From a virus (taxonomy: Duplodnaviria; Heunggongvirae; Uroviricota; Caudoviricetes), in IMG/VR virus record IMGVR_UViG_3300031555_003801, positions 1 through 64,000 of that record: a stretch of 64,000 bases of DNA; one strand, written 5' to 3'. Positions 1,838-25,912 of this stretch are shown in pieces. The stretch's first letter is position 1. Every line of letters begins with the position of its first letter. Made by a program: the position numbers and the translations under genes. Under the pieces are notes generated by a model. That model searched no databases and was not told the DNA's origin. It saw only the letters and a program-made list of their open reading frames with translations.

Positions 1838-1952
1838 AGGCACATACAGCAAATCCTCAATTGCGAGAATGGCTCAATGGTAGAGCATAAGTCTGATAAA
1901 CTTACGGTTATTGGTTCGAATCCAATTTTTTGCACAAAATTGAAAGGTGCCT
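1838..1952 (+). repeat. Hairpin-flanked element 'a': inverted repeat AGGCAC/GTGCCT with conserved ACAGCAAA just 3' of the left arm; encloses an intact tRNA-Ile
   Basis: ggcacat-ACAGCAAA at 1839-1853 and gtgcct at 1947-1952. Member of an 8-copy family (see findings). Confidence 0.5.
1863..1934 (+). tRNA. tRNA-Ile (anticodon GAT)
   Basis: Hand-folded cloverleaf. Acceptor gcgagaa/tttttgc (2 G-U). D arm gctc-aatggta-gagc. Anticodon arm taagt-ctGATaa-actta. T arm attgg-ttcgaat-ccaat. Confidence 0.65.
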
Positions 1953-1969: not shown

Positions 1970-1998
1970 TTGAAAAATTAAAAAAAATATGATATAAT
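1970..1998 (+). promoter_or_regulatory. sigma70-like promoter: TTGAAA-N17-TATAAT, extended -10 (TGaTATAAT)
   Basis: ttgaaa 1970-1975, 17-nt A-rich spacer ending atatga, tataat 1993-1998. Member of a recurrent promoter family. Confidence 0.6.
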
Positions 1999-2593: not shown

Positions 2594-2627
2594 AAAATTT
2601 TTAAGCAAAAGTAAAAAATCTTTTATT

Positions 2628-2655
2628 TGAAAATTTTATAAAAAAATGTTATAAT
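2628..2655 (+). promoter_or_regulatory. sigma70-like promoter TTGAAA-N17-TATAAT (extended -10 TGtTATAAT)
   Basis: ttgaaa 2627-2632, tataat 2650-2655. Confidence 0.6.
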
Positions 2656-2822
2656 ATATTATAATAAAAAATAAAAATTGGTAGTACCCAGAAAATTCCG
2701 GGCATTGGGAGATGGGTCTAAAGGAACAAGTGACCTTATGAAGCGTAGGAATTACCAATTTATATTAGGTGGGAACCAGCCTTGATCCTCTTAATTTAAG
2801 AGTCTAAAATGGTCTTTAATAT

Positions 2823-2894
2823 TGGGGCGTCGCCAAGTGGTAAGGCACAGGGTTTTGATCCCTGCATCCGTAGGTTCGAATCCTACCGCCTCAG
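2823..2894 (+). tRNA. tRNA-Gln (anticodon TTG)
   Basis: Acceptor tggggcg/cgcctca. D arm gcc-aagtggtaa-ggc. Anticodon arm caggg-ttTTGat-ccctg. T arm gtagg-ttcgaat-cctac. Confidence 0.7.
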
Positions 2895-2896
2895 CG

Positions 2897-2955
2897 GTAT
2901 CAAGAGATAAACCTTCACGTGGTGATACTGATTTCGACAGATTATCTCAAAAAAA
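2897..2955 (+). repeat. Copy 1 of a ~55-nt structured element (GAGATAA ... TTATCTC stem around ACCTTCACGTGGTGATACTGATTTCGACAGA), followed by an A-run
   Basis: Near-identical to 10812-10866 (1 substitution). A diverged third copy at 5044-5100 has compensatory stem changes. Each copy follows an RNA gene 3' end. Confidence 0.5.
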
Positions 2956-2979
2956 TAAATAAAAAGGAGCTATTTAATT

Positions 2980-3597
2980 ATGGCATACATTTATAAAATT
3001 ACTAATTAGATTAATCAAAAATCTTATATTGGAAAAACTTCTAAAATAAATCCACAAAGAAGATGGATGGAACATAAAGCAGATAGTAATAATCCTAATA
3101 GAAATCATAGAGCTTTATATAAAGCTATGAATAAATATGGAATAGATAATTTTATTTTTGAAATTATTGAAGAAACTAATTTGCCAGAAGAACGAGAAAT
3201 ATATTATATACAATATTATAATACTTATCATAATGGTTATAATGAAACTCTCGGCGGAGATGGTGGTAAATATTTAGATTTACCAGAACAAGAAATTTGT
3301 AAATTCTATTTAAAAAATAGAAATTTAAAAGATACCGCTGAGTTTTTTAATCATGATCAATTAACTATTAAACAAGTATTATATAAATATAATATAGAAA
3401 TTATTTCTTCTTATGAAGTTTTAAAAGAAAAAACTTCTAAACCAGTTGCGAAATTAGATAAAAATACAGAAGAAATAATTGAAATTTATCCATCAGTTAT
3501 TGAAGCAGAAAGACAAAATTCATGTCATTCACATATAAAAGATGTTTGTCATGGAAAAAGAAAAACTGCTGGCGGATTTAAATGGAAATTTATATAA
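2980..3597 (+). CDS. GIY-YIG homing endonuclease, 1 in-frame TAG (3007)
   Basis: MAYIYKITN*INQKSYIGKT...RRWMEH (GIY-YIG motifs) continuing into the ORF-track frame 3067..3597. RBS AAGGAG at 2965. Lies inside the tRNA array. Confidence 0.7.
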
Positions 3598-3598
3598 T

Positions 3599-3674
3599 GG
3601 GATTATAGCTCAAAAGTGAAGAGCGATGGTCGAAAGATTGGAGGTTGTGAGTTCAAATCTCACTAATCCCACCA
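3599..3674 (+). tRNA. tRNA-like gene with non-pairing anticodon stem (possible pseudo-tRNA)
   Basis: Acceptor gggatta/taatccc is perfect. D arm gctc-aaaagtgaa-gagc. T arm gtgag-ttcaaat-ctcac. CCA present. The region atggtcgaaagattgga does not form an anticodon stem. Confidence 0.35.
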
Positions 3675-3771
3675 ACGGGCAGAAGTGTAGCAAATATGTG
3701 GCTGCCAAGAGAAGAAAACAAACCACGATGTGCGGGCAGTTGGGGACCTAACCCTAGCTGTAATTTAATAA

Positions 3772-3836
3772 AAAGATGCTAACAGCGATCTTAATGCAAG
3801 CATGCAAATCCTTCCAAGATTTAATAATAGCATCTT
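3772..3836 (+). repeat. Hairpin-flanked element 'h': AAAGATGCTA / TAGCATCTT inverted repeat with ACAGCGA after the left arm
   Basis: Variant member of the ACAGCAAA hairpin family. Confidence 0.4.
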
Positions 3837-3864
3837 GTATTTTCTTCCAAAAGGAGGAAAAAAA

Positions 3865-4146
3865 ATGTAGAATGAGATTTTAAATTTCATTAAACGACGT
3901 TGGAGTATTGACGCAAATTGGACTAATGGAAATTGTTTATGGTTTGCCAAAATTCTTCAATTACGCTTTCCGCAAATTCAAATATATTACCTTCCAATTA
4001 TAGGTCATTTTATTGTTTCTGATGGAGAAAATTACTATGATTGGAATGGAATTTATCTTCCAGAAGAAGAACCAATTAATTGGGAGGAATTGCGGAAAAG
4101 CGATTTTTTATGGGCTGAACGATTGATAAGAGATTGTTGGCTCTGA
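3865..4146 (+). CDS. Small hypothetical protein (93 aa) whose second codon is TAG (ATG TAG AAT...)
   Basis: Strong RBS AAGGAGGA 3851-3858. Reading frame M*NEILNFIKRRWSIDANWTNGNCLWFAKILQ...RDCWL with stop TGA 4144-4146. Confidence 0.4.
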
Positions 4147-4149
4147 TAT

Positions 4150-4235
4150 AGGTGGGCGGCAGAGTTGGAGAGCTGCGCCGGACTGTAAATCCGGTGCCTC
4201 AGGCTGAGTGGGTTCGAATCCCACCCCACCTACCA
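4150..4235 (+). tRNA. tRNA-Tyr (anticodon GTA), class II (long variable arm)
   Basis: Acceptor aggtggg/cccacct. Anticodon arm ccgga-ctGTAaa-tccgg. Variable arm tgcctcaggctgag. T arm gtggg-ttcgaat-cccac. CCA present. Confidence 0.75.
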
Positions 4236-4374
4236 TATATGTCATTTGCGCAATGACCTCGTTGGGAGAAAGGTCCCTCACGTTCAATACGAGAAACATA
4301 GCGGCCTCTATACTTTTCGCTTATCCGTTCTCTTCGTATATGCAGAAAGGCTATAAAAAGTTGAACATAATATA

Positions 4375-4448
4375 CCCTTAGTAGTCTAGTGGTAGGACGA
4401 CAGATTGTGATTCTGTTTGCGGCAGTTCAATTCTGCCCTAGGGGACCA
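4375..4448 (+). tRNA. tRNA-His (anticodon GTG)
   Basis: Acceptor cccttag/ctagggg. D arm gtc-tagtggtag-gac. Anticodon arm acaga-ttGTGat-tctgt. T arm ggcag-ttcaatt-ctgcc. CCA present. Confidence 0.7.
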
Positions 4449-4453
4449 ATATG

Positions 4454-4533
4454 TAGGCACATGTACCAAGGCTGGCGACGGAGTCTCCAAAATTCCGTGT
4501 GGTGGGTTCGATTCCCAACTGTCTATGCCAAAA
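4454..4533 (+). tRNA. tRNA-like sequence (canonical T arm and 3' CCA, unresolved D/anticodon arms)
   Basis: T arm tggg-ttcgatt-ccca followed by tgtctat-g-cca. Possible acceptor partner gtaggca. The anticodon region cggagtctccaaaattccg has an over-long loop. Confidence 0.3.
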
Positions 4534-4549
4534 AATAAAAATCAAAAAT

Positions 4550-4578
4550 TTGATTTTTATAAAAAAATATTGTATAAT
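4550..4578 (+). promoter_or_regulatory. sigma70-like promoter TTGATT-N17-TATAAT
   Basis: ttgatt 4550-4555, tataat 4573-4578 (ttgTATAAT). Confidence 0.55.
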
Positions 4579-4725
4579 ATATATACAATAAAAAAATAAA
4601 TAAAAATACTGAAAAAACTTGGATCCCATAAGTTGATTTAGTAAAGTGAGGGAATGGGTATAGGCCTCCGCTTTTAAAATGGCATTGAAAAATATGTACT
4701 GCTAAATCTTAGGTATTTTTTATAT

Positions 4726-4800
4726 GGTTTATTAGTTCATCGGTTAGAATGCCGGTTTGTCAGGCCGGAGAGGCGGGTTCGATTCCCGCATAAACCGCCA
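4726..4800 (+). tRNA. tRNA-Asp (anticodon GTC)
   Basis: Acceptor ggtttat/ataaacc. Anticodon arm ccggt-ttGTCag-gccgg. T arm gcggg-ttcgatt-cccgc. CCA present. Confidence 0.75.
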
Positions 4801-5043
4801 ATTTGCCCAATTAAATCTTGTATGGAGATTATAGTGGCTTTGGTCGGCCTCGGACCTAAGTAATGGCGATGAGGATATTTTTGAGATTGATTGGTATGCT
4901 CTTCACAGGTTTAGAAGAAACTAAAGATTGCGTATTACCCCCGGACGGTTAAGATTTTCAGATAAGGGTTAAGTTAGGTAAGAAAATCAATTGCATGCAA
5001 GGGTTTCATCATTTCCCTCACTGCGGTGGAAAAATGATAAATG

Positions 5044-5100
5044 ACTCACTATGTAAAAGAACCTTCTCGTGGTGTGAGTTGATTTCGACAGATACTTTTA
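5044..5100 (+). repeat. Diverged copy 3 of the ~55-nt structured element: stem GTAAAAG/CTTTTAC around AACCTTCTCGTGGTGTGAGTTGATTTCGACAGATA
   Basis: Core conserved with copies at 2897 and 10812. The outer stem sequence is different but still complementary (covariation). Confidence 0.45.
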
Positions 5101-5706
5101 CAAAAAAATAAATGCTAAATAACTCAGTGCTAAACTGTATCTCGCAGATATGGCTGAGGTATGCGGAAAATGGTCGGCAGAAAACGAAGCAGGGATACCT
5201 GTTGATACTGGCCCGCTGGTTCTAAGGTGACGAAGTTCCAGAAGAGGAGAGAACTCCCAAACGAAACGCATAGCATTTCATATATCGCAAATAAAAGCAG
5301 TAAGCGAATGGGCGAGGCAATAGAAAGCTCTGTGAATAGCGGAGCCGAATCCAAGTTAGGGTTTAGCTGGTGACTGTATCAATCCTTGGAAATACCAACA
5401 ACTCGTTTGGCCGTGAAGCAGAGAAATCTGTGTATAACATTTGCGCGCAACGTCCGAGTAGGTCAAGGCTATATTGCAATTCAAATTTTTGAAAGTTCTT
5501 ATTTGTTGTAGAAGAATTAACAAGAAATTTACTGAATTGTGGCTGAAAGGTGTGGGTAATCAATCCCGCATAGGACATTGGCTTTTAAAGCTGGGTTAAA
5601 AAAGTCACTGGGGTAGCTCCCCTAGGCTCAGATTTAACTCCCTATTGGCTGAATATATTTGAAGATATGTGACGTAGAACGAAGGTTCATTTAGCATTTT
5701 TTTTAT

Positions 5707-5780
5707 GCGGTATTGGTGTAGAGGTAACATAAGAGCCTTCCAAGCTTGGGTCGCGGGTTCGATTCCCGCATACCGCTCCA
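5707..5780 (+). tRNA. tRNA-Gly (anticodon TCC)
   Basis: Acceptor gcggtat/ataccgc. Anticodon arm agagc-ctTCCaa-gcttg. T arm gcggg-ttcgatt-cccgc. CCA present. Confidence 0.65.
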
Positions 5781-5784
5781 TTAT

Positions 5785-5858
5785 GTGCTAGATTCTTTGC
5801 GGCGAGGAAGTGGTCTGCAAAACCATCAGAGTTGGTTCGACTCCAACCTAGCACTCCA
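5785..5858 (+). tRNA. tRNA-Cys (anticodon GCA)
   Basis: Acceptor gtgctag/ctagcac is perfect. Anticodon arm gtggt-ctGCAaa-accat. T arm gttgg-ttcgact-ccaac. CCA present. Confidence 0.7.
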
Positions 5859-6180: not shown

Positions 6181-6209
6181 TTGAAAATTTAAAAAAATTA
6201 TGATATAAT
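6181..6209 (+). promoter_or_regulatory. sigma70-like promoter TTGAAA-N17-TATAAT
   Basis: ttgaaa 6181-6186, tataat 6204-6209 (tgaTATAAT). Lies upstream of hairpin element 'c'. Confidence 0.6.
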
Positions 6210-6263: not shown

Positions 6264-6340
6264 ATAGTCTGCAAAACTAATGGTTGTTGGTTCGAGTCCA
6301 ACCTTGAGATTTTATCTCAAGTAGCTCAATTGGGAGAGCT
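6264..6340 (+). tRNA. Candidate circularly permuted tRNA-Cys (anticodon GCA): anticodon arm, T arm and acceptor 3' strand are followed by a 5-nt loop and then the acceptor 5' strand and D arm
   Basis: Anticodon arm atagt-ctGCAaa-actaa (6264-6280). T arm gttgg-ttcgagt-ccaac (6286-6302). Acceptor 3' cttgaga (6303-6309). Loop t+ttta. Acceptor 5' tctcaag (6315-6321) is the exact reverse complement. D arm gctc-aattggga-gagc (6324-6339). Leader ttctta (6255-6260) pairs with trailer taagaa (6344-6349), bringing positions 26/27 together. ACAGCAAA at 6239-6246. Confidence 0.5.
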
Positions 6341-6366
6341 TAATAAGAATATGTGTCTAGAATTAT

Positions 6367-6888: not shown

Positions 6889-6917
6889 TTGAAAAATTTA
6901 AAAAAATATGATATAAT
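6889..6917 (+). promoter_or_regulatory. sigma70-like promoter TTGAAA-N17-TATAAT
   Basis: ttgaaa 6889-6894, tataat 6912-6917. Immediately followed by hairpin element 'd'. Confidence 0.6.
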
Positions 6918-8098: not shown

Positions 8099-8947
8099 AT
8101 GGAATTAATTGATTTTACAAAAGAGATAAATAATGCTTAGTTATTTGTAGGTTCTGGTAAAAAGAAAAAATTATTAATTAATTATAACAATGAATAGTAT
8201 ATAATTAAATTTGCTAAAAATATATGTACAAATAATCAAGGTATTATTACAAATTAGAGAGGCTTTTCAGAATATTTAGCTTGTCAAATTTATCAAAATG
8301 CAGAATTTTTTGTTTAGGAAACTTTATTAGGTTATTATAAAAATAAAAATAATATTTTAACTGCTTGTAAACTTGCAAATAATAAAATTACAGATTTTAG
8401 TTTTTTTATGGAAAAATATGATTATAAAGTAAGTAATAAATTAAATGATATTTTATTAGTTTGTAAATATATTAATATAGAAGAATACTTTTGGGATATG
8501 TTTATTATAGATGCTTTTATTGGTAATACAGATCGTAATACTGGTAATTGGGGATTATTTTATAATGAAAAATTAGATAAAATATTAAGCGTTCCTTTTA
8601 TTTTTGACTGTGAAAATAGTTTTTATCCCAATATGAATGATTATATTTTATAGAATTATTGTCAAAAAGAATTAAAAGAAATAGCTTATAATTATCCAGA
8701 ATCAAAAATAATTTATAATAATAAAAATATAAATTATTTTAATTTTATTTCTTCTTTAGAGAATGAAGATTGTAATGAAGCTTTAAAAAGAATTGTTCCT
8801 AAAATTGATATAGAAAAAATTATTTAGATTATAAATGATCTTCCACTTGAAAAAATATAGAAAAATTTTTTAATAACAATTCTTCAAAAAAGAAAAGAAT
8901 TATTAAATCTTGTTTTAATAAAACTTAATGAAAGAGAAAACCAATGA
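8099..8947 (+). CDS. HipA-like (HipA/CtkA kinase family, divergent catalytic motif) protein with 7 in-frame TAG codons
   Basis: VGSGKKKKL (P-loop-like) and FIIDAFIGNTDRNTGNWG (HipA C-terminal motif region, with D-R-N in place of D-x-H). Same frame as ORF-track fragment 8408..8653. Overlaps the E1 start (ATGA). Confidence 0.5.
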
Positions 8948-9675
8948 TTAGATATAAAGAAAATATTGATGAATTTAATTTAACAGAAAAAATTCAAAAT
9001 CAATTATTAACAAAAAATATTGCAGTAATTGGTTGTGGCGGACAAGGTGGATATACTTTAGAATTTCTTATTCGATTAGGAATTAAATCTATTATTTTTT
9101 GGGATGGAGATTATTTTGAAGAATCTAATCTTAATAGACAAATAGGCTGTTTAATTCCAACGTTACAAAAAAACAAAGCTTTATCTATGAAAGAAAGGCT
9201 TCAACAAATTAATCCAGAAGTAGAATTAATTTGTTGTGATTGGTATTTTGGAGATAAAGAAGATGATAAAGAGAAACTATCTAAAGTAGATTTTATTTTT
9301 GATGCTGCAGATTGTAATTATAATATTTTTAAATTAAGAACAATTTTAAGAGAAGTCATTATTGAATATAATATTCCTATTATTCGTTTCCCTATAAATA
9401 TATTAGGAGGTTATGTTCATATTGAAACTATGAAAGATTTAAGCCATTTTGATTTTATTACGCATAGATTAATTTATCAAAATAAAAATGAAAAAATTTT
9501 TCCAGAAGCAGTAAGTCAACCCGCTTATAAATGTGCAATTATTGCGGGCGAAGCTGTAAATCAAATGGTTCAATATTTTTCTAATTGTAGATATGCGGCT
9601 ATTGATACAACTTTAAATATTGATCTTTATCATCATAAATATGTTGAAGAAGATAGATTTGGAATTATTCCATAA
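8944..9675 (+). CDS. ThiF/MoeB/E1-like adenylyltransferase
   Basis: Rossmann motif IAVIGCGGQGGY. Signature FEESNLNRQ. 243 aa. Confidence 0.75.
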   Translation: MIRYKENIDEFNLTEKIQNQLLTKNIAVIGCGGQGGYTLEFLIRLGIKSIIFWDGDYFEESNLNRQIGCLIPTLQKNKALSMKERLQQINPEVELICCDWYFGDKEDDKEKLSKVDFIFDAADCNYNIFKLRTILREVIIEYNIPIIRFPINILGGYVHIETMKDLSHFDFITHRLIYQNKNEKIFPEAVSQPAYKCAIIAGEAVNQMVQYFSNCRYAAIDTTLNIDLYHHKYVEEDRFGIIP

Positions 9676-9846: not shown

Positions 9847-9923
9847 TTGAGAAGTAGCTCAGATGGTTAGAGCGCAGGTCTGATAAACCTGAGGTCGTGA
9901 GTTCAATTCTCACCTTCTCAACC
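9847..9923 (+). tRNA. tRNA-Ile (anticodon GAT), second copy
   Basis: Acceptor tgagaag/cttctca is perfect. D arm gctc-agatggtta-gagc. Anticodon arm caggt-ctGATaa-acctg. T arm gtgag-ttcaatt-ctcac. CCA present. Confidence 0.75.
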
Positions 9924-10325: not shown

Positions 10326-10420
10326 GGAGGCGTACCGAAGTGGCTATAACGGCGCAGACTTGAAATCTGTTGTGTCAGCTAGTACCTGACGCGGGGGTTC
10401 AAATCCTCCCGCCTCCGCCA
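10326..10420 (+). tRNA. tRNA-Ser (anticodon TGA), class II
   Basis: Acceptor ggaggcg/cgcctcc is perfect. Anticodon arm gcaga-ctTGAaa-tctgt. Long variable arm. T arm ggggg-ttcaaat-cctcc. CCA present. Confidence 0.75.
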
Positions 10421-10463
10421 ATAACAATGAAGAGTTAAAGGCCTGTAAGGACTTTAACTATTA

Positions 10464-10813
10464 CGGGGCTGAAAATGGTTTCGACAGGGTTGTGAAAAAT
10501 TTTAAATCCGCAGGTGTGATTTACCTTACAAATCAAACTTAAATATAAACGCAAAACCTTATAGATTAGCTGCCTAATTAATTGGTAGGCCTAAACGACA
10601 TGCTTGTTGTTCAGCTAAATGTCTGCGGCTCGAGGAATAGAACAATCACCCCAAAGTTTCTTAATTCTTTTTCAAAAATTAAGTGGTGGATACGATGTTT
10701 GTAAAGTGTCTTTACAAAACCCTGAGTTGGTTATCTCTAAAATAACCTATTGCGTAAGTATGATTTAAAATTAGTAACAGTTTTGGACGCGAGTTCGACT
10801 CTCGCCAGCTCCA
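10464..10813 (+). ncRNA. ssrA: tmRNA (ssrA-like transfer-messenger RNA)
   Basis: 5' end GGGGCTGAAAATGGTTTCGACAGGG (tmRNA tRNA-like domain). 3' end ggacgcgag-ttcgact-ctcgc-cagctcc-a (T arm + acceptor pairing with GGGGCTG). Internal tag-like reading frame GCA AAA CCT TAT AGA TTA GCT GCC TAA (…AKPYRLAA*) ending in the typical LAA + TAA. Confidence 0.65.
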
Positions 10814-10866
10814 GGCATCAAGAGATAAACCTTCACGTGGTGATGCTGATTTCGACAGATTATCTC
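10812..10866 (+). repeat. Copy 2 of the ~55-nt structured element (immediately 3' of the tmRNA)
   Basis: catcaagagataaaccttcacgtggtgatGctgatttcgacagattatctcaaaaa. One substitution relative to copy 1. Confidence 0.5.
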
Positions 10867-10898
10867 AAAAATTGTTCTCATTTTCTTTATTTCTATTA

Positions 10899-11052
10899 AG
10901 ACTCAATACAGCAAAATTATAAAACTTGTTTAGGCAATATATAAACTCTACAGAAAATGTGCTGGTGACACGCTTTCACTGTTGTTATTATTTGATAGTA
11001 AGAAAAACAGGGATAATAACGCTAATAAAAACTGTTAAATTCTTTTGAGTCT
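10899..11052 (+). repeat. Hairpin-flanked element 'f': AGACTCAA / TTGAGTCT enclosing ~140 nt, with ACAGCAAA at 10908-10915
   Basis: 8-bp inverted repeat. The insert has no ORF. The suppressor tRNA follows directly. Confidence 0.45.
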
Positions 11053-11061
11053 AGTATTAAA

Positions 11062-11151
11062 GCTCCGTAGTCTAATGGTAAAACGCCGGACTCTAAATCC
11101 GTTATACTCTCTGAAAGGGTAATCTGGGTTCGAATCCCAGCGGGGCCGCCA
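11062..11151 (+). tRNA. Amber suppressor tRNA (anticodon CTA, reads UAG), class II with long variable arm
   Basis: Anticodon arm (c)cgga-ctCTAaa-tccg(t) with U33 and A37. Variable stem tactct/agggta. T arm ctggg-ttcgaat-cccag. Acceptor agctccg/cggggcc (1 A-C at 1-72) + g + CCA. The D arm is irregular. Confidence 0.6.
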
Positions 11152-11160: not shown

Positions 11161-11193
11161 AGCCAGTTTATATTTTTATAAACTGGCTTTTTG
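11161..11193 (+). terminator. Rho-independent terminator closing the tRNA array
   Basis: agccagtttata-ttttt-ataaactggct followed by tttt. Confidence 0.7.
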
Positions 11194-11201: not shown

Positions 11202-11230
11202 TTGAAAAAAATTAAAAAATATGATATAAT
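11202..11230 (+). promoter_or_regulatory. sigma70-like promoter TTGAAA-N17-TATAAT
   Basis: ttgaaa 11202-11207, tataat 11225-11230 (tgaTATAAT). Confidence 0.6.
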
Positions 11231-11264: not shown

Positions 11265-12230
11265 ATGGAATTAATTGACTTTACGAAAGCAATAAATAAT
11301 GCTTAGTTATTTAAACCTACTGGTAACAATAAAAAAAAATTAAAAATTATTTATAATAATGAAGAATATATAATAAAAACTTCAAAATATACAATTGAAC
11401 AAGATAAAGAAAATAAATATAAAATGATTGAATTGTATAATACAATATCGGAATATTTAGGTTGTAAAATTTATGATAGTTTAAATATACCTGCACAAAA
11501 AACTTTATTAGGATATTATTAGTATAAAAATAAAAAACAAATGATAATTGCTTGTAAAAATTTTAATATTGATGATAGTTTTCTTCCTTTTGGTATATTC
11601 TTTAATAAAGAACGACAACAAGATAATAATAAATTGCAATCTTTAGAAATAAAAAATATTATAAAAAAAATTGAAGAACAAAATATTTATGATTCTCAAA
11701 AAATAAAAAAACGTTTTTGGGATATGTTTATTATTGATGCTTTTATTGATAATCCCGATAGAACTTCTGGAAACTGGGGTTTTATAAAAGATAAAAAAAC
11801 AAATACAATCATAAATTTTTGTCCAATTTTTGATTGTGAATAGAACATATTTTTAGAAATACTATTAAAAAATAAAAAACAATTATTAAATAATTAGAAT
11901 AAAATAAATTTTTTAGCTATATCGCCTTTTAAAAAATCTTATTTAATTTATGATAATAAAGTTATAAATTATTTTAATTTTATTTCCTCTTTAGAAAATG
12001 AAGATTGTAATGAAGCTTTAAAAAGAATTGTTCCTAAAATTGATATGGAAAAAATTATTTAGATTATAAATGATCTTCCACTTGAAGAATTCCAAAAAAA
12101 TAATTTAATAATAGTATTAAAAAAAAGAAAAGAATTATTATTAGATTTTCCTTTATTTCTCTTACAAAATATAGATAAAAGAGAAAAATACGAAAAAAAA
12201 ATAGAAAGGATAATATATGATAAATTATAA
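11265..12230 (+). CDS. HipA-like paralog with 5 in-frame TAG codons
   Basis: MELIDFTKAINNA*... FIIDAFIDNPDRTSGNWG. Same frame as ORF-track fragment 11541..11843. Its C-terminal ~125 bp is a near-exact direct repeat of the 3' end of 8099..8947. Stop TAA at 12228-12230 overlaps the ycaO start. Confidence 0.5.
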
Positions 12231-14153: not shown

Positions 14154-15710
14154 ATGAATAAGTTTTTAAATGGATTAACTGATGCAACTAACTTCACTTA
14201 CACTGAAAATGGTGCTATTACCCATAAAACTACTAAGTCTGCTCTGTTAGATATGTTCGCACTTGGTGGAGCATATAGAACTAGAAGTGACGCAGAAGTA
14301 ATCACCTTATTTAAGAACGCATATGAGGAAAATCCTGTTTATGCGTTAAAGTGCCTGTTCTATCTGCGCGACGTGCGTGGCGGACAGGGTGAAAGAAGAT
14401 TTTTCAAAACTGCAATGAAGTGGTTTGCTAATGCTGATGTAGAAGCAGCAAGAAGAAATTTCAAGCATATTCCAGAGTTTGGTAGATGGGATGATTTATA
14501 TCTTTTCATTAATACGCCTCTTGAAAATGAAATGTTCCAGTTTATGAAGGAACAGTTAGCACTCGATATGCAGTGCAAAACACCTTCTCTGTTAGCAAAG
14601 TGGTTAAAGTCTGAAAATACATCTTCTATGGAATCCAGATATCTGGCTAAGAAGACTCGTCAGTATTTTGGCATGACCGCAAAGCAGTATAGAAAGACAT
14701 TATCTATCCTCCGTGAAAGAATTAATGTTCTTGAAAGATTAATGTCTGCAGGTAAGTGGGATGAAATCGAGTTCGATAAGATTCCTTCTAAGGCAGGTTT
14801 AATTTATAAGAATGCTTTTGCTAGACACGATATCGAAAGAATGAAGACTGAAAAGGCTGTAGTATCTTATGCGGATTTCGCTAAGGATGTAACTACAACT
14901 GTAAATGCTAAGGCATTATATCCATATGAAGTAGTAGCTAAGGCTATTGATTTAATGGGATATAATGGTGGTTGGTTCCGTAGCACTCATGATGTTCCAT
15001 TAGATAATACTGATAGACTTATGATTAATAAATATTGGAATAATCTCGCTGATTATATCCAGGGTGCTAATTTTAATGGAATTGCAGTGGTAGATACTTC
15101 TGGTTCTATGACTGGTTCTTTTGCTAGTGCACCAATTAATGTAGCTGTTTCTCTTGGCATGTATTGTGCTGAAAAAAATAATGGTCCATTCAAAGATCAC
15201 TTCATTACATTTGAATCTAATCCTCATTTAATTAAGGTTGAAGGCGTAGACTTTTGCGAAAAGGTTTATAATATTACTGGCGCAGACTGGGGTGGTTCTA
15301 CAAATATTGAAGCAGTGTTTGACTTATTATTAGATACTGCTATCAGAAATAATTGTTCTCAGGATGAAATTCCACAGAATGTAATTGTTATTTCTGATAT
15401 GGAGTTTAACTCTTGTGTAACTTTTAATAGCTTACTTGCAAGAAGATATTATAATGAACCTATGTTTAATACTGAAACTTTATTCGAAACCATGGAACGC
15501 AAATGGAATAGAGCAGGATATCAGATGCCTGCAATTACATTCTGGAATGTTCAGGCAAGACAGAATAATATTCCAATGAAGACTGAAGGTAGAGTAAATT
15601 ATGTATCTGGTATGTCTCCAGTAATCTATGAACAGGTTATGAAAGGTTTAAGTGCTTACGATCTGATGATGGATAAGTTAGATAATGAAAGATATAGCGT
15701 AATTTGCTAA
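14154..15710 (+). CDS. vWA (MIDAS) domain protein with large N-terminal helical domain (Ro60/TROVE-like architecture possible)
   Basis: MIDAS motif VVDTSGSMTG. 518 aa. Clearly higher GC and different codon usage than flanking phage genes. Confidence 0.55.
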   Translation: MNKFLNGLTDATNFTYTENGAITHKTTKSALLDMFALGGAYRTRSDAEVITLFKNAYEENPVYALKCLFYLRDVRGGQGERRFFKTAMKWFANADVEAARRNFKHIPEFGRWDDLYLFINTPLENEMFQFMKEQLALDMQCKTPSLLAKWLKSENTSSMESRYLAKKTRQYFGMTAKQYRKTLSILRERINVLERLMSAGKWDEIEFDKIPSKAGLIYKNAFARHDIERMKTEKAVVSYADFAKDVTTTVNAKALYPYEVVAKAIDLMGYNGGWFRSTHDVPLDNTDRLMINKYWNNLADYIQGANFNGIAVVDTSGSMTGSFASAPINVAVSLGMYCAEKNNGPFKDHFITFESNPHLIKVEGVDFCEKVYNITGADWGGSTNIEAVFDLLLDTAIRNNCSQDEIPQNVIVISDMEFNSCVTFNSLLARRYYNEPMFNTETLFETMERKWNRAGYQMPAITFWNVQARQNNIPMKTEGRVNYVSGMSPVIYEQVMKGLSAYDLMMDKLDNERYSVIC

Positions 15711-15947: not shown

Positions 15948-16751
15948 TTGTTTTATAAGAAAGGATTTTTAATGAAATATTTTATTGATTTTGAAGCCAA
16001 TAGTCCGACGAATGAAATCATTGAAATAGGTTGCGTTTCTGAAAAAAATGATTGTTTTAAAATGTATGTTAAACCAACTACACCTATTGACCCATTTATT
16101 ACGGGATTAACGCATATTACAAATAAAATGGTAGAAGATTCTCCTTTAATTGATGAAGCAATTATGATTTTTTATAATTGGCTTATCAATACGCAGGAAC
16201 ATTTTTCTTGGAAAGATACTACTTTTTATTGCTATGGAAATGCGGATCATTCATTTATTCAGGCTTCAGCACAAACTTGCGAAACAACTGATTCTTATAT
16301 GATTCTTGCGGCTATGGCTATGTCTTTGAAAGATTTTACCAAGAAAGTAAATCATTTCTTTAAAGATAGTATTTCTTTAATCCAGGCATTAAATTATTTT
16401 AAAACCTCGGAAACAGCTTGGGAGCAGTGTCATGATGCTCTTGAGGATGCGCTAGCTTTAAAAGAATTATATAAAGTTTTACCAAAAAAATATTCATTAC
16501 CTTGTTCTCCATTTGTTATTAAAACAGAAATGGGTGTTAGAAGAAATAAAAAAGGTTATGGATATACTGATTATATTAGTTTAACAGAAGCTACTGAATG
16601 TGTTGTAAAAGAAATATTAACAACATCACCAAATTCTAATGTTAAATCTGAAAATATTAGAAAAAGAATTATTCATGCTATTAATAAGAAAAGTTCTTAT
16701 ATGGGATATAAATGGAAATATGTAAAGATTGAGAAAGGGGATGAAGAATAA
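15948..16751 (+). CDS. DEDDh-family 3'-5' exonuclease (DnaQ/RNase T-like)
   Basis: Exo I motif FIDFEANSP..EIIEIG. Exo III motif HDALEDALAL. The true start is probably the internal Met at MKYFIDFE. Confidence 0.65.
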   Translation: MFYKKGFLMKYFIDFEANSPTNEIIEIGCVSEKNDCFKMYVKPTTPIDPFITGLTHITNKMVEDSPLIDEAIMIFYNWLINTQEHFSWKDTTFYCYGNADHSFIQASAQTCETTDSYMILAAMAMSLKDFTKKVNHFFKDSISLIQALNYFKTSETAWEQCHDALEDALALKELYKVLPKKYSLPCSPFVIKTEMGVRRNKKGYGYTDYISLTEATECVVKEILTTSPNSNVKSENIRKRIIHAINKKSSYMGYKWKYVKIEKGDEE

Positions 16752-18169
16752 TGTATTAGGCATATGTAACTAAATTAAAAAATGTGCGGCCGCACCCTAA
16801 TGCTGATAGAATGCTTTTAGCAGACTGTTTCGGCAATACTGTTTGTGTAGGCCTTGACGCGCAAGAGGAAGATGTAATTCTCTATTTTCCAACAGATGGA
16901 CAATTATCTAAAGAATATGCGGAAATCAATAATCTTATAAGAATCAAGAATGAAGATGGAACATATTCCGGTGGATATTTAGACCCAGATAAAAGAAACA
17001 TCAAAGCAATTAAATTAAGAGGTGAAAAATCTGATGGTTTAGTAATGCCACTAGAATCCCTTTCTTCTTTTGGAGATATTTCTACTTTAAATATTGGAAA
17101 TACAATTAATGTCTTTAATGGACATGAAATTTGTAAAAAGTATATTCCAAGAGAAAATCCAATGAAGGTGCGCGCTGGCGGTAATAAGACCCGCAAGACC
17201 AAGCGCCTAATTGCTCCTTTATTCAAAGAACATGCTGATACTGAACAATTAGCATATAATCTTGATGCTTTCAAAGCGGGAGATGAAATTGAAATCACAT
17301 TAAAGATGCATGGAACTTCTCAAAGAACTGCTTACTTACCAAAATTAATTGGTTATAAAAGATCTATTTTAGATAGACTCTTAAAGAGAGAAGGAACTCC
17401 AATCTATGATTGGGGCTATGTGTCTGGAACTCGTAGAACTGTTGTAGATGATTTTGAAAATAGAACAACTTCTTTCTATGGTAGTGATGCATTTAGAGAA
17501 CCGCATGCAAAAATGTTTGAAGGAAAGCTTTATAAGGGTGAAACTGTTTATTATGAAGTTGTTGGTTTTACCGATAATGGAACTCCTATTATGGGTTCTT
17601 GTGATAATAGAAAAACTCAAGATAAAGAGTTTATTAAGAAATATGGTGAAGTGACTACTTTCTCTTATGGTTGTGACTGTGCGGAACAAGCATGGAGAGA
17701 AAATAGAGGACAAGATCCAGACAAACCTCAGTCTGACATTTATGTATATCGAATGACAATGACTAATGAAGATGGTTATGTAATGGAATTAACTCCTGAT
17801 TATATGAGATATAGATGCGAGCAGATGGGTGTAAAGACAGTGCCTGTTATGTGGAAAGGATACATTCCTTATACAGTAGATGACATTGATTCTACTATTC
17901 CTGGTCACAGAATTATACTTAGAGAAGGGGAAAATGCTGGAGACTGGGTTAAGAGTGTAGCAGAACAGTATTACGATGGACCTGACCCAATTGGTAGAAC
18001 CCATGTGCGGGAAGGTGTAGTTGTAAGAATTATAAATAGACCAAAATTTGCAGCATATAAGCATAAAAACTTTAGCTTCAAAGTTCTCGAAGGAATTGTC
18101 AAAGCGGATGCATTAATGCCAGATATGGAAGAAGCACAGGAGACTATTGATGAAAGTTCAGAGATTTGA
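16751..18169 (+). CDS. ATP-dependent RNA ligase (Rnl2/Rnl5-like, nucleotidyltransferase motif I KMHGTS) with N-terminal OB-like domain; codon 3 is TAG
   Basis: ATG TAT TAG at 16751-16759 joins onto ORF-track frame 16784..18169. LKMHGTSQR resembles the KxHG(T/S)N motif I of the Rnl2 family. GC-richer than the surroundings. Confidence 0.55.
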
Positions 18170-24130: not shown

Positions 24131-24850
24131 ATGGCTACTTACATTTGCAGTGATTTACATGGCAATTATAATGTATGGTATGAAATCAAAAAATTCTTAA
24201 AAAAAGATGATAAATTAATTTGCCTTGGTGATGTAATTGATAGAGGTTCCGCAGGATATTCCATTTTAGTAGAAATGCTTGGAGATTCAAGAGTAGAATT
24301 ATTTATGGGTAATCATGAAGATATGATGATTCGTAGTTGTGATTTACATCTTAAAGGTGCTAATACAAATACTTCTTCCACTATGGCAAATTGGATTTAT
24401 GGCAATGGTGGAAATTGTACTTTTGAAGATTGGTGTCTCGATCCTGGTCGTATGGAAATATTAGAACAAATGCGCAATCTACCTTTAAAAAGATTACATA
24501 TTAATGAAAAAGGTTTAAAAATTATTTTATGTCATGCAGGTTGTTGTTCAGAAGATTTTTATAATGATAATATTGAAGATTTTGATTTGTTATGGGATCG
24601 AAATCATTTTCATTTTCCTTGGCCAAAAGATGAAGAATTTGAAGACTGGATGGTAGTTCATGGACATACTCCAATAGCAAAGATGATGAATTGGCCAGAT
24701 TATGTGCCGACCAAAGCTCTATGGTATGAAGGTGGGCATAAAATTGATATTGATTGTTTAACAGCATTTACCAATTTTACTATTCTTCTTAATATTGATA
24801 CTTTTGAAGAACATATTATTGGAGAACCTATTGAGGAGGTGCTTTGGTAA
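24131..24850 (+). CDS. Calcineurin-like metallophosphoesterase / Ser-Thr protein phosphatase (lambda PPase/ApaH-like)
   Basis: Motifs CSDLHGN, GDVIDRG, GNHE. Confidence 0.75.
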   Translation: MATYICSDLHGNYNVWYEIKKFLKKDDKLICLGDVIDRGSAGYSILVEMLGDSRVELFMGNHEDMMIRSCDLHLKGANTNTSSTMANWIYGNGGNCTFEDWCLDPGRMEILEQMRNLPLKRLHINEKGLKIILCHAGCCSEDFYNDNIEDFDLLWDRNHFHFPWPKDEEFEDWMVVHGHTPIAKMMNWPDYVPTKALWYEGGHKIDIDCLTAFTNFTILLNIDTFEEHIIGEPIEEVLW

Positions 24851-25140
24851 TGGCTGCTTATGAAATTCATGATTTTTATTGTATTAAATGCGGAAATAAA
24901 TCAATTCCATTATCTCGTAAAAGTGGGCATCAGCATGCAAGAGGTCATAGAAAGAAATTATATTGTCCGCATTGTAAATTAACTATTAACCATGTAGAAG
25001 TAAGGAATTATGATGAAAAAGAAGAATTTTTGGAAAAATTTAAAAATGGTGAATTCATTGCCGAAGTCGAAGAAAGCATTGAGAATTGTGAGAATTCATC
25101 CATGCGGGTATTGTTCGAATCCATATCTAGCAAGAGATAA
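24844..25140 (+). CDS. Hypothetical zinc-ribbon protein
   Basis: CIKCGN...CPHCK. Confidence 0.35.
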   Translation: MVMAAYEIHDFYCIKCGNKSIPLSRKSGHQHARGHRKKLYCPHCKLTINHVEVRNYDEKEEFLEKFKNGEFIAEVEESIENCENSSMRVLFESISSKR

Positions 25141-25164
25141 TTTTGCGAGTCAAAAATATGATGT

Positions 25165-25674
25165 TTGGTTTTGTCCAAAATGCGGAACGGGATGGGTGAT
25201 ATAATGGCAACAAGTTTAATTATGATGGTTGGCGCGCCTGGAAGTGGTAAAACTACTTGGATTAAAAATGCTAAAGAATTTAATTTAGAAGGAAATCATA
25301 TTTCTCGAGATGTAATTAGATTTTCTTTAGTAAAAGAAGACGAAGAATATTTTAGTCGAGAAAATGAAGTATTTGATAAATTTATTGAAGAAATTCAAAA
25401 GTCTATTGATGCGGGACAGCGCACTTATGTAGATGCTACTAATCTCAATGAAAGATCAAGAAATAAAGTTCTTGATAGATTAAATCTTGAAAATGTAGAT
25501 TTATATGCTTTAGTTTTTAATATTCCTCTTGAAGAATGTTTGCGACGCAATGCTCTGCGGACCGGACGTGAAGTAGTGCCAGAAAGCGCTCTGACGCGCA
25601 TGCATAAATCTATGACAAATCCGCGAGGAGACCAGAAATATAAATATAAGGAGGTATATGTAATTTATGCCTAA
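25165..25674 (+). CDS. Polynucleotide 5'-kinase (T4 Pnk kinase-domain-like P-loop kinase)
   Basis: MMVGAPGSGKTTW (Walker A), ISRDVIR, DATNLNERSR, FNIPLEECLRRNALR, all similar to the T4 Pnk kinase domain. The start is probably the ATG at 25204. Confidence 0.65.
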   Translation: MVLSKMRNGMGDIMATSLIMMVGAPGSGKTTWIKNAKEFNLEGNHISRDVIRFSLVKEDEEYFSRENEVFDKFIEEIQKSIDAGQRTYVDATNLNERSRNKVLDRLNLENVDLYALVFNIPLEECLRRNALRTGREVVPESALTRMHKSMTNPRGDQKYKYKEVYVIYA

Positions 25675-25909: not shown

Positions 25910-25912
25910 GGA

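What the first reader, a model, noticed from the sequence alone, without database searches (positions are those of the whole stretch)
2897..2955. Three-copy ~55-nt structured element with compensatory stem changes, each placed 3' of an RNA gene
Copies at 2897-2955 (after tRNA-Gln) and 10812-10866 (after the tmRNA) differ by one base. The copy at 5044-5100 keeps the core ACCTTCNCGTGGTG..A.TGATTTCGACAGAT but swaps the closing stem GAGATAA/TTATCTC for GTAAAAG/CTTTTAC, which is classic covariation. All copies are followed by an A-run rather than a T-run, so this is not a simple intrinsic terminator. It is a candidate novel structured RNA motif (processing signal, stability element or small regulatory RNA).
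Basis: seen in the sequence. Interest (0 to 1): 0.55.

Follow-up and report, generated by a model that had tools for sequence, protein, structure and literature searches.

The report
Self-cleaving theta ribozymes flanking phage RNAs
The three repeated ~55-base elements are copies of an already published small self-cleaving RNA (a "theta", hepatitis-delta-virus-like ribozyme) that most likely cuts itself off the ends of neighbouring phage RNA genes; the element is known, but its positions next to a tmRNA and a ROOL RNA were not found in the papers searched.

Summary
The repeat is real: three + strand copies at 2896-2948, 5043-5101 and 10814-10866. It is not a new motif. Each copy has the full architecture of a minimal HDV-like "theta" ribozyme (Kienbeck et al. 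2024, PMC10879173): P1, P2, P3 and P1.1 in nested double-pseudoknot order, G+1 in a G.U pair, and a C at the first J4/2 position. Copy 1 matches published Theta1857 at 52 of 53 bases.

The predicted cleavage sites lie one base after the discriminator of tRNA-Gln and directly after the discriminator of the tmRNA. These are the two flanked RNA genes that lack an encoded CCA. The third site is 56 nt upstream of the Rfam start of a ROOL RNA, which the ribozyme abuts.

Self-cleavage is inferred, not shown. The four members tested in the paper are all of the CC/GG P1.1 type, whereas the window carries the UC/GA-UUUCGA type.

The contexts appear to be new. Of 92 perfect-helix members of this subtype in public contigs, 31 lie beside ROOL and 17 precede GOLLD-like RNAs. 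No paper searched links these RNAs or tmRNA to such ribozymes. The element is a new member of a known kind, of moderate interest.

The parts
2823..2894 (+). tRNA-Gln(UUG). It has no encoded CCA; the discriminator is G2894.
   Evidence: ARAGORN; Rfam tRNA 62.8 bits; the 3' trailer is cggtatc, not cca.
2896..2948 (+). Theta ribozyme copy 1, with predicted cleavage between C2895 and G2896. Domains: P1 2896-2901 / 2924-2929; J1/2 2902-2903; P2 2904-2910 / 2942-2948; P3 2911-2913 / 2921-2923; L3 2914-2920; P1.1 2915-2916 / 2930-2931; L4 2932-2937; J4/2 2938-2941.
   Evidence: [quoted passage not shown] It is 52/53 identical to published Theta1857. Covariance model score 73.6 bits.
2938..2938 (+). 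Predicted catalytic cytosine of copy 1 (first base of J4/2, the counterpart of HDV C75).
   Evidence: Position taken from the parse. The column is invariant in alignment A1. The paper shows that C-to-U at this position inactivates four other members.
2980..3597 (+). GIY-YIG homing-endonuclease ORF with one in-frame TAG. It would be carried on the 3' cleavage product of copy 1.
   Evidence: Pfam PF01541, E 1e-9; ORF called with TAG read as sense.
5043..5101 (+). Theta ribozyme copy 3, with predicted cleavage between T5042 and G5043. Domains: P1 5043-5049 / 5074-5080; J1/2 5050-5052; P2 5053-5059 / 5095-5101; bulged A5060; P3 5061-5063 / 5071-5073; P1.1 5065-5066 / 5081-5082; L4 5083-5088; J4/2 5089-5094, with catalytic C5089.
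   Evidence: Descriptor parse. Detected by a covariance model that was not trained on it: 27.3 bits, E about 1e-3. The same layout (bulged A, 6-nt J4/2) sits directly after tRNA-His and tRNA-Gly in other contigs.
5099..5707 (+). ROOL RNA, abutted at its 5' end by copy 3. Its closing helix starts at about 5105. It is followed directly by tRNA-Gly, which starts at 5707.
   Evidence: Rfam RF03087, 337.4 bits, model positions 1-574; tRNA-Gly 5707-5777.
10465..10813 (+). Phage-encoded tmRNA (tag peptide AKPYRLAA, G3.U70 present). It has no encoded CCA; the discriminator is A10813.
   Evidence: ARAGORN; Rfam RF00023 102.6 bits; the trailer is ggcatc.
10814..10866 (+). Theta ribozyme copy 2, with predicted cleavage between A10813 and G10814, directly after the tmRNA discriminator. 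Domains: P1 10814-10819 / 10842-10847; P2 10822-10828 / 10860-10866; P3 10829-10831 / 10839-10841; P1.1 10833-10834 / 10848-10849; L4 10850-10855; J4/2 10856-10859, with catalytic C10856.
   Evidence: Descriptor parse; covariance model 75.3 bits. It differs from copy 1 only by the compensatory P1 pair.
16751..18169 (+). DRB0094-like RNA ligase. This gene family is reported as 140-fold enriched in phages that carry theta ribozymes. It is a possible partner in end healing or sealing (inferred).
   Evidence: Pfam PF09414, 27.5 bits (cut-off 27); NCBIfam TIGR02306, E 1e-14, below its cut-off; enrichment figure from the paper.
24131..25674 (+). Metallophosphoesterase (24131-24850) and Pnkp-like P-loop kinase (25165-25674). 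They are candidate healers of the 2',3'-cyclic phosphate and 5'-OH ends left by the ribozymes (inferred).
   Evidence: Pfam Metallophos, E 7e-15, and AAA_33, E 1e-20; N-terminal part of NCBIfam TIGR04075 bacter_Pnkp, E 6e-18, far below its cut-off.

Best explanation
The three elements are theta-type (minimal hepatitis-delta-virus-like) self-cleaving ribozymes embedded in polycistronic transcripts of the phage's tRNA/tmRNA/ROOL gene block.

Each folds into a nested double pseudoknot:
- P1 (6-7 bp), closed by a G+1.U wobble.
- P3 (ACC/GGU, 3 bp) with the 7-nt loop U-UC-NCGU.
- P1.1 (UC of L3 pairing with GA after P1).
- A 6-nt L4 (UUUCGA) in place of P4.
- J4/2, starting with the catalytic cytosine.

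By the established HDV mechanism, the cytosine and a bound Mg2+ catalyse attack of the 2'-OH of the base before G+1. The upstream RNA is left with a 2',3'-cyclic phosphate. The ribozyme, with a 5'-OH, stays attached to the downstream RNA.

Expected consequences here:
1. tRNA-Gln is released as ...G73-C74>p.
2. The tmRNA is released ending at its discriminator A>p. Both must then be dephosphorylated and completed to CCA by a CCA-adding enzyme. None is encoded in this window, so it is presumably the host's or encoded elsewhere in the phage.
3. ROOL is cut free of upstream transcript and would begin with the ribozyme at 5043. RNase P cleavage at tRNA-Gly (5706|5707) would define its 3' end.

Shown: sequence, architecture, covariation, family membership, positions relative to gene ends. 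Inferred: catalytic activity of this subtype, the in vivo ends, and the healing enzymes.
For: Architecture. All three copies satisfy a strict theta descriptor, and nothing else in 128 kb of both strands does. A covariance model run with filters off also finds only these three.

Identity. The domain-by-domain layout is identical to the published descriptor output. Copy 1 is 52/53 identical to Theta1857, and the UC/GA-UUUCGA subtype is abundant in the published list.

Covariation. On 21 distinct sequences, 100% of 372 cells pair and 14 of 18 pairs show changes on both sides. Slid controls give 26-52%.

Independent control. A search pattern that constrains only P3, L3, P1.1 and L4 returned 142 hits with enough flank. 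Of these, 89 have zero mismatches in P1 plus P2. With decoy or shuffled 5' arms the count is 0 of 142.

Within the window. The only two differences between copies 1 and 2 are a compensatory U-A to C-G pair in P1.

Position. The cleavage sites fall +1 and 0 nt from the discriminators of tRNA-Gln and the tmRNA. Of 23 tRNA/tmRNA genes, 20 encode CCA. The two flanked genes are among the three that do not. The paper likewise reports that only 4.5% of theta-associated tRNAs encode CCA.

Genome type. Reading TAG as sense raises ORF coverage from 0.71 to 0.84, and a suppressor tRNA(CUA) is present. A DRB0094-like RNA ligase is encoded. Both traits are enriched in theta-carrying phages.

Activity of the class. 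Four other members self-cleave in vitro in a Mg2+-dependent way and are killed by C-to-U.
Against: No cleavage assay exists for these sequences. The four ribozymes tested in the paper are all of the CC/GG P1.1 type, as judged from their primers. Activity of the UC/GA P1.1 plus UUUCGA L4 subtype is therefore extrapolated.

Copy 3 has a bulged A between P2 and P3 and a 6-nt J4/2. It scores only 27 bits against the model. The same layout does occur directly at tRNA 3' ends elsewhere.

Cleavage after tRNA-Gln would leave one extra C. This fits CCA completion, but it could also reflect a 1-nt error in my P1 assignment.

Rfam 15 gives no HDV-family hit at E<=10.

The sequences used in the pair count were chosen for intact helices, so that percentage is partly circular. 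The decoy test is the unbiased one.
Confidence: 0.9

Rival explanations
1. The copies are ribozymes, but their selected role is on the downstream side. In this reading they give the GIY-YIG mRNA, the ROOL RNA and the suppressor-tRNA precursor a 5'-OH end capped by a compact fold. Such an end would resist 5'-monophosphate-stimulated RNases. Trimming of the upstream tRNA or tmRNA would be incidental.
For: An HDV-like ribozyme stays on the 3' product (established mechanism). Copy 3 has no RNA gene at its cleavage site but abuts ROOL. In 14 other contigs the ribozyme's 3' end lies -11 to +8 nt from the ROOL model start. Copy 1 lies 31 nt upstream of a GIY-YIG start codon.
Against: Copies 1 and 2 place G+1 exactly 1 and 0 nt after the discriminator of CCA-less genes. 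In this subtype, 29 of 92 members sit within 6 nt of a tRNA or tmRNA 3' end. That precision is not needed for a purely downstream role. The two roles are not mutually exclusive.
Confidence: 0.15
2. The element is a protein-recognised processing or stability hairpin, or a small regulatory RNA, with one closing stem and a conserved loop, and it has no catalytic activity of its own.
For: The closing stem covaries. No activity has been measured for these sequences.
Against: Four helices covary, not one, and they are arranged in the HDV order. The invariant bases are those of the HDV active site: L3, the G.U pair at +1 and the J4/2 cytosine. Copy 1 is near-identical to a catalogued theta ribozyme. 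As a plain hairpin the fold is no more stable than shuffled sequence.
Confidence: 0.04
3. The element is a DNA-level repeat rather than an RNA. It would be a homing-endonuclease target, a recombination site, or a remnant of duplication linked to the GIY-YIG gene next to copy 1.
For: Copies 1 and 2 are 51/53 identical while their flanks diverge at once, 0 nt upstream and 5 nt downstream. A GIY-YIG gene follows copy 1. The 12 bases AAAAAAATAAAT follow both copy 1 and copy 3.
Against: Strand-specific compensatory changes, including G.U pairs, occur across about 60 distinct sequences from unrelated contigs. All copies share the strand of the RNA genes. Placement at tRNA 3' ends is exact. Modular copying of a ribozyme unit explains the sharp boundaries equally well.
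Confidence: 0.02
4. The element is a fragment of a tmRNA 5' end, or the coding piece of a two-piece (permuted) tmRNA.
For: UGAUUUCGACAG in the element resembles UGGUUUCGACAG at the tmRNA 5' end. Rfam tmRNA_permuted gives 30.2 bits at 10754-10923.
Against: That hit is below the gathering score of 47. It is built from the true tmRNA's T-arm and acceptor plus a short similarity. A stronger artefact of the same kind (42.8 bits) arises from tRNA-Ser plus the tmRNA 5' end. The same motif follows tRNA-Gln, precedes ROOL, and is explained base by base as L4 and J4/2 of the ribozyme.
Confidence: 0.01

Closest known systems
Theta ribozymes (minimal HDV-like ribozymes of gut phages; Kienbeck et al., Nat Commun 2024, PMC10879173)
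   Same: The domain order and lengths are the same, as are the conserved ACC/GCC-U-YC-NCGY-GGY core, G+1, the J4/2 cytosine and the short L4. The placement at the 3' end of CCA-less phage tRNAs also matches, as does the setting in a TAG-recoded phage with a DRB0094-like RNA ligase. Copy 1 is 52/53 identical to Theta1857, and copy 3 resembles Theta1849.
   Different: The window carries the UC/GA P1.1 plus UUUCGA L4 subtype, whereas the four experimentally tested members are CC/GG. One copy follows a tmRNA and one abuts a ROOL RNA. The paper mentions neither context. Theta1857 was filed there as 'not tRNA-associated'.
HDV and HDV-like (drz) ribozymes (genomic/antigenomic HDV, CPEB3, drz-Mtgn-1)
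   Same: The nested double-pseudoknot fold is shared, as are the catalytic cytosine after P4/L4, the G.U pair at the cleavage site, cleavage at the ribozyme's own 5' end, and products with 2',3'-cyclic phosphate and 5'-OH. The paper's descriptor parses the antigenomic HDV core as ACC|T|CC|TCGC|GGT, nearly the same as here.
   Different: There is no P4 helix, only a 6-nt L4. The total length is 53-59 nt. One P1.1 pair is U-A instead of C-G. Rfam's HDV-family models do not detect these copies.
R2 and other retrotransposon HDV-like ribozymes that cut the 5' end of a co-transcript
   Same: They are a functional analogue for copy 3. The ribozyme sits at the 5' end of a functional RNA, frees it from upstream transcript and remains attached to it (established knowledge).
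   Different: Those are eukaryotic elements embedded in rRNA transcripts. Here the cargo is a phage non-coding RNA (ROOL) inside a tRNA array.
Protein-based tRNA 3' end maturation (RNase Z for CCA-less precursors, then the CCA-adding enzyme)
   Same: The outcome is the same: an endonucleolytic cut at or next to the discriminator of a CCA-less tRNA, followed by CCA addition.
   Different: The cut is made in cis by the RNA itself and leaves a 2',3'-cyclic phosphate. That end must be removed before CCA addition.

Membership tests
Theta / minimal HDV-like ribozyme | Nested double-pseudoknot order: P1-5', J1/2, P2-5', P3 hairpin, P1-3', P1.1-3', L4, J4/2, P2-3'. | tested here: met
   All three copies parse with perfect P1 (6, 7 and 6 bp), P2 (7 bp), P3 (3 bp) and P1.1 (2 bp).
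Theta / minimal HDV-like ribozyme | The helices are supported by covariation, not only by the complementarity of one sequence. | tested here: met
   100% of 372 cells pair and 14 of 18 pairs change on both sides, against 26-52% in slid controls. In an unconstrained test, 89 of 142 pattern hits have perfect P1 plus P2, against 0 of 142 decoys. A compensatory P1 pair separates copies 1 and 2.
Theta / minimal HDV-like ribozyme | Catalytic cytosine at the first position of J4/2. | tested here: met
   C2938, C5089 and C10856. The column is invariant in alignment A1.
Theta / minimal HDV-like ribozyme | G at +1, closing P1 with a G.U (or G-C) pair. | tested here: met
   G2896.U2929, G5043.U5080 and G10814.U10847. 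This pair is G.U in 20 of 21 aligned sequences.
Theta / minimal HDV-like ribozyme | Conserved P3/L3 core (RCC - U - YC - NCGY - GGY), short J1/2 and short L4. | tested here: met
   The core is ACC-U-UC-ACGU-GGU in copies 1 and 2 and ACC-U-UC-UCGU-GGU in copy 3. J1/2 is 2-3 nt and L4 is 6 nt, the same as many catalogued members.
Theta / minimal HDV-like ribozyme | Near-identity to a catalogued member. | tested here: met
   Copy 1 against Theta1857: 52/53, with the only difference being ACGT versus ACGC in L3.
Theta / minimal HDV-like ribozyme | 'tRNA-associated' as the authors define it: cleavage site within 5 nt of a tRNA 3' end. | tested here: inconclusive
   Met for copy 1 (+1 nt from tRNA-Gln). 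Met in spirit for copy 2 (0 nt from a tmRNA, which tRNAscan-SE would not report). Not met for copy 3 (242 nt from tRNA-Asp).
Theta / minimal HDV-like ribozyme | Mg2+-dependent self-scission at G+1, abolished by C-to-U in J4/2. | not testable with these tools
   Shown in the paper for four CC/GG-type members only. No data exist for the UC/GA-UUUCGA subtype.
Rfam HDV-type families (HDV_ribozyme, HDV-F-prausnitzii, drz-Agam) | A score at or near the family's gathering threshold. | tested here: not met
   No ribozyme family is reported at the three sites even at E<=10. Rfam 15 appears to hold no model that reaches theta ribozymes.
Intrinsic (Rho-independent) terminator | A G+C-rich hairpin followed by a U-tract on the transcribed strand. 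| tested here: not met
   The terminator scan reports nothing at these sites. The stems are A+U-rich and are followed by an A-run.
Permuted (two-piece) tmRNA | Rfam RF04321 at the gathering score (47 bits), with separate acceptor and coding pieces. | tested here: not met
   30.2 bits at 10754-10923, assembled from the real tmRNA 3' end plus the ribozyme. A similar artefact of 42.8 bits occurs at 10368-10577.

The most novel reading that the evidence does not exclude
Theta ribozymes of the UC/GA-UUUCGA subtype may be general RNA 'punctuation' for phage non-coding RNA islands. Besides trimming tRNAs, they would define the ends of the giant ornate nanocage RNAs (ROOL, GOLLD-like) and of a phage tmRNA. 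If so, the native ROOL in this phage starts with a 59-nt ribozyme bearing a 5'-OH and ends at an RNase P site. That would give the first handle on how these RNAs of unknown function are made.
Probability: 0.5. Interest if true: 0.6.

Novelty: new member of a known kind. Interest (0 to 1): 0.42.

Why it matters
As a motif this is already explained. It should be annotated as three theta (HDV-like) ribozymes rather than pursued as a new RNA class.

Two points go beyond the published description.

1. A phage-encoded tmRNA whose 3' end is apparently made by a ribozyme. This extends ribozyme-based 3' maturation from tRNAs to tmRNA. It is seen only in this window.

2. A recurrent juxtaposition with ROOL and with GOLLD-like RNAs. 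Of 92 perfect-helix members of the subtype, 14 abut ROOL's 5' end, 8 lie 16-400 nt upstream of ROOL, 9 lie on its 3' side, and 17 precede GOLLD-like RNAs. ROOL and GOLLD form RNA-only nanocages of unknown function. Their native termini and biogenesis have not been described in the papers I could search. Ribozyme-defined ends would say which transcript boundaries to use in structural and functional work, and would give a simple genetic handle (a C-to-U mutation).

The association is not universal. None of 9 ROOL loci picked independently of the ribozyme carries one; in about half of them a tRNA sits just upstream instead.

Tried and rejected
- Rfam at gathering and at E<=10 gave no family for the element. 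The only hits there were chance-level PK-PYVV (21 bits) and the tmRNA_permuted artefact.
- A BLAST search of 2600-5800 against GenBank phages found only tRNA and HNH fragments, and no relative.
- Plain MFE folding of either strand gave no signal, because the fold is a pseudoknot.
- My first idea was that UGAUUUCGACAG marks a tmRNA 5'-like or permuted-tmRNA piece. I dropped it once the second helix showed the HDV topology.
- A promoter reading (TCGACA ... TAAAT) was considered and dropped. The spacing differs between copies, and the real promoter-like sites here are TTGAAA-17-TGnTATAAT elsewhere.
- A search for relatives of this tmRNA's 3' end in IMG/VR gave three unrelated loci and no second tmRNA-ribozyme junction.
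- The 245 nt upstream of copy 3 (4798-5042) showed no conservation with the upstream flanks of other ROOL-abutting ribozymes, and no ORF. What copy 3 cuts off is unknown.
- No CCA-adding enzyme turned up among 45 ORFs of the window scanned with Pfam, about two-thirds of the 65 ORFs of 100 aa or more called with TAG as sense.
- The exact window sequences are not in the stored, truncated parts of the paper's supplements.

Full report
**Observation**

The three copies are real. A strict structural descriptor run on both strands of the window finds exactly three sites, all on the + strand: 2896-2948, 5043-5101 and 10814-10866. A covariance model built from relatives and run with filters off gives the same three sites at 73.6, 27.3 and 75.3 bits. 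Copy 3 was not in the training set, and the next best hit scores 10.8 bits.

Three details of the finding need correction.
- Copies 1 and 2 differ at two positions, T2898/C10816 and A2927/G10845.
- Only copies 1 and 2 follow an RNA gene. Copy 3 lies 242 nt after tRNA-Asp and directly before a ROOL RNA (RF03087, 5099-5707, 337 bits).
- The A-run after copy 3 is the 5' strand of ROOL's closing helix.

**What it is**

The two differences between copies 1 and 2 pair with each other: GGUAUC/GAUACU becomes GGCAUC/GAUGCU. Copy 3 has GACUCAC/GUGAGUU at the same place.

The full order is:
1. P1-5'
2. a 2-3 nt junction (J1/2)
3. P2-5' (GAGAUAA)
4. a 3-bp hairpin, ACC-UUCNCGU-GGU (P3 and L3)
5. P1-3'
6. 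GA, which can pair with the UC of the hairpin loop (P1.1)
7. UUUCGA (L4)
8. CAGA (J4/2)
9. P2-3'

This is the nested double pseudoknot of hepatitis-delta-virus-like ribozymes. It has G+1 in a G.U wobble at the base of P1 and a cytosine at the first position of J4/2, where HDV has its catalytic C75.

The literature search confirmed the match. Kienbeck et al. 2024 (PMC10879173) describe 'theta ribozymes', which are minimal HDV-like ribozymes placed with their cleavage site at the 3' end of phage tRNAs. Their catalogue is written domain by domain in the same order. It contains Theta1857:

This is copy 1 with a single base changed. The catalogue also holds many other members with the TC/GA P1.1 and the TTTCGA L4.

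**Tests of structure**

I aligned 22 sequences of identical layout: the window copies, public contigs and catalogue entries. The four helices, written as a pseudoknot, pair in 100% of 372 cells. Fourteen of 18 pairs change on both sides. Versions with the 3' partner slid by 1-3 columns pair in 26-52% of cells.

Those sequences were chosen for intact helices, so I also ran an unbiased test. The pattern CCTTCNCGYGGY-N6-7-GATTTCGAC constrains only P3, L3, P1.1 and L4. It returned 148 hits from IMG/VR, JGI metagenomes and the window. Of the 142 with enough flank, 89 have zero mismatches in P1 plus P2. None of 142 does when the 5' arm is taken 100 nt further upstream, and none when it is shuffled. 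The remaining hits are G+C-rich chance matches with two or more mismatches.

**Position and likely action**

Of 23 tRNA/tmRNA genes in the window, 20 encode CCA. Only tRNA-Gln, the tmRNA and tRNA-Ile (1863-1934) do not.
- G+1 of copy 2 directly follows the tmRNA's discriminator A10813.
- G+1 of copy 1 follows G2894-C2895 of tRNA-Gln, so cleavage would leave the first C of CCA.

The paper reports the same pattern: only 4.5% of theta-associated tRNAs encode CCA, and 77% of the ribozymes lie within 1 nt of the tRNA end.

By the established HDV mechanism, the upstream product carries a 2',3'-cyclic phosphate. The ribozyme keeps a 5'-OH and stays attached to the downstream RNA.

For copy 3 this means ROOL would start at 5043 with the ribozyme attached. 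tRNA-Gly starts at 5707, immediately after ROOL's closing helix, so RNase P would make ROOL's 3' end.

Strong promoter-like sites (TTGAAA-17-TGnTATAAT) lie at 1970, 2627, 6181, 6889 and 11202. One terminator-like hairpin lies at 11161-11188. This fits long polycistronic transcripts that need internal cuts.

The window fits the paper's profile of theta-carrying phages in three ways:
- TAG appears to be recoded. ORF coverage rises from 0.71 to 0.84 when TAG is read as sense, and a tRNA(CUA) is present.
- A DRB0094-like RNA ligase is encoded at 16751-18169.
- A Pnkp-like kinase and two metallophosphoesterases are encoded.

These enzymes could heal the cyclic-phosphate and 5'-OH ends. That link is inference. 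I found no CCA-adding enzyme among the ORFs I scanned.

**What is not shown**

No one has tested these sequences for cleavage. The reverse primers in the paper's Supplementary Data 6 show that all four assayed ribozymes have the CC/GG P1.1. Activity of the UC/GA-UUUCGA subtype is therefore extrapolated from covariation and from its placement at tRNA ends.

**Contexts beyond the paper**

The paper mentions neither tmRNA nor ROOL. No paper in the library combines ROOL with 'HDV-like', or tmRNA with 'theta ribozyme'. The ROOL discovery paper and the ROOL/GOLLD cryo-EM paper say only that these RNAs lie near tRNAs.

I classified the 92 perfect-helix members of the subtype, including the window's three:

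| Context | Members |
|---|---|
| Within 6 nt of a tRNA or tmRNA 3' end | 29 |
| 3' end within -11 to +8 nt of a ROOL model start | 14 (9 distinct ribozyme sequences) |
| 16-400 nt upstream of a ROOL | 8 |
| 22-215 nt downstream of a ROOL | 9 |
| Before a conserved ~380-nt stretch plus an embedded tRNA | 17 |
| Unknown neighbours | 20 |

A few members fall in two rows, so the rows sum to more than 92.

The conserved ~380-nt stretch plus tRNA is matched by Rfam's GOLLD model at 46-79 bits (E 1e-9 to 6e-19). This is below the gathering score of 150, but the hit is full-length in all ten loci tested.

The tmRNA junction occurs only in the window.

The ROOL link is one-sided. Nine ROOL loci picked by an internal ROOL word carry no theta ribozyme. 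In about half of them a tRNA sits 12-60 nt upstream instead. The ribozyme therefore looks like one of two interchangeable ways to punctuate these RNA islands.

Bacterial-genome hits of the subtype are all Clostridia MAGs from rumen or gut. Together with the sigma-A-type promoters, this points to a Bacillota host (inference).

**Verdict**

The finding is a real structured RNA that is already explained. It consists of three theta-type HDV-like self-cleaving ribozymes, so it is a new member of a known kind. Residual interest lies in the tmRNA and ROOL (and, elsewhere, GOLLD-like) contexts. These are shown here as genomic associations and remain to be tested as processing events.

Noticed in passing
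window 5099-5707: A full-length ROOL RNA (Rfam, 337 bits) sits inside the tRNA array. It is bracketed by ribozyme copy 3 on its 5' side and by tRNA-Gly, which starts at 5707, on its 3' side.
   Followed up: yes
L040, L042, L044, L072, L074, L103, L110, L133, L136-L138 (metagenomes); L157, L158, L164, L167, L172, L174, L178, L182, L190 (Clostridia MAGs): Theta ribozymes with P2 = TGAACAAA are followed by a highly conserved ~380-nt structured stretch and then a tRNA of varying identity. Rfam's GOLLD model hits across the tRNA at 46-79 bits, below the gathering score of 150. In L074 and L044 the GOLLD-like units appear to be separated by ribozymes. I found no description of ribozyme-flanked GOLLD in the papers searched.
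   Followed up: partly
window 11061-11148 and whole window: A suppressor tRNA with anticodon CUA is 88 nt long, has a long variable arm and an encoded CCA, and is called 'Pyl' by ARAGORN. Many ORFs carry in-frame TAG (for example 8099-8947, 11265-12230, 30301-31560 and 42210-43160, with 5-7 each). Reading TAG as sense raises ORF coverage from 0.71 to 0.84. I did not determine which amino acid is inserted. The long variable arm argues against a standard Gln type.
   Followed up: partly
window 1970-1998, 2627-2655, 6181-6209, 6889-6917, 11202-11230: There are five near-identical promoter-like sites, TTGAAA-17 nt-TATAAT with an extended -10 TG, all on the + strand between RNA genes. A terminator-like hairpin lies at 11161-11188, just after the suppressor tRNA.
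   Followed up: no
window 14154-15710 and 6264-6363: A DUF2828/DUF7788 protein is encoded. A sub-threshold Rfam hit to the Y RNA-like family YrlA (35 bits against a gathering score of 69, E 9e-5) lies in the tRNA array. This may be a phage Ro-like protein / Y-like RNA pair. I did not examine it.
   Followed up: no
window 15948-18169, 24131-26575, 30301-31560: A cluster of RNA-end-processing genes is present: an RNase T-like exonuclease, a DRB0094-like RNA ligase, two metallophosphoesterases, a Pnkp-like kinase and a PIN+PhoH protein.
   Followed up: partly
window 8099-8947 and 11265-12230: Two paralogous TAG-rich ORFs start with MELIDFTK.INNAQLF, share a C-terminal block and have no Pfam hit. 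They flank the tRNA-Ile...tmRNA...suppressor-tRNA block. ThiF (8944-9675), YcaO (12217-14007) and two radical-SAM genes (20990-23373) lie nearby.
   Followed up: no
window 2949-2960 and 5102-5113: The same 12 bases, AAAAAAATAAAT, follow copy 1 and copy 3. After copy 3 they form the start of ROOL's closing helix. After copy 1 they precede the ribosome-binding site of a GIY-YIG gene. This could be chance in A+T-rich DNA, or a trace of a ribozyme-plus-ROOL-start duplication interrupted by the endonuclease gene.
   Followed up: no
window 2980-3597, 42210-43160 (C-terminal part), 62809-63381: Three GIY-YIG homing-endonuclease-type ORFs occur in one 64-kb window, and each carries in-frame TAG.
   Followed up: no
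window 1863-1934: tRNA-Ile(GAU) is the third RNA gene without an encoded CCA, but it has no ribozyme. A promoter-like site follows it directly. A second tRNA-Ile(GAU) with encoded CCA lies at 9848-9921.
   Followed up: no
L148 about 2120-2199 and L150 about 2575-2651 (IMG/VR): These are ~80-nt RNAs that look like a bare tmRNA tRNA-like domain. They run from GGGGCUGAAUAGGUUUCGAAGG to GACGCGAGUUCGACUCUCGCCAGCUCCA and have no coding part. ARAGORN does not call them.
   Followed up: no
L018 2409-2480 (also L021, L030, L054); L024 9758-9830 (also L115): The ribozyme is preceded by sequence that ends like a tRNA (T-arm plus acceptor, for example ...GGTGCAATTCCTGCCCGTTCGGCTCCA). Neither ARAGORN nor Rfam calls a gene there. 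These may be unusual tRNA-like RNAs.
   Followed up: no
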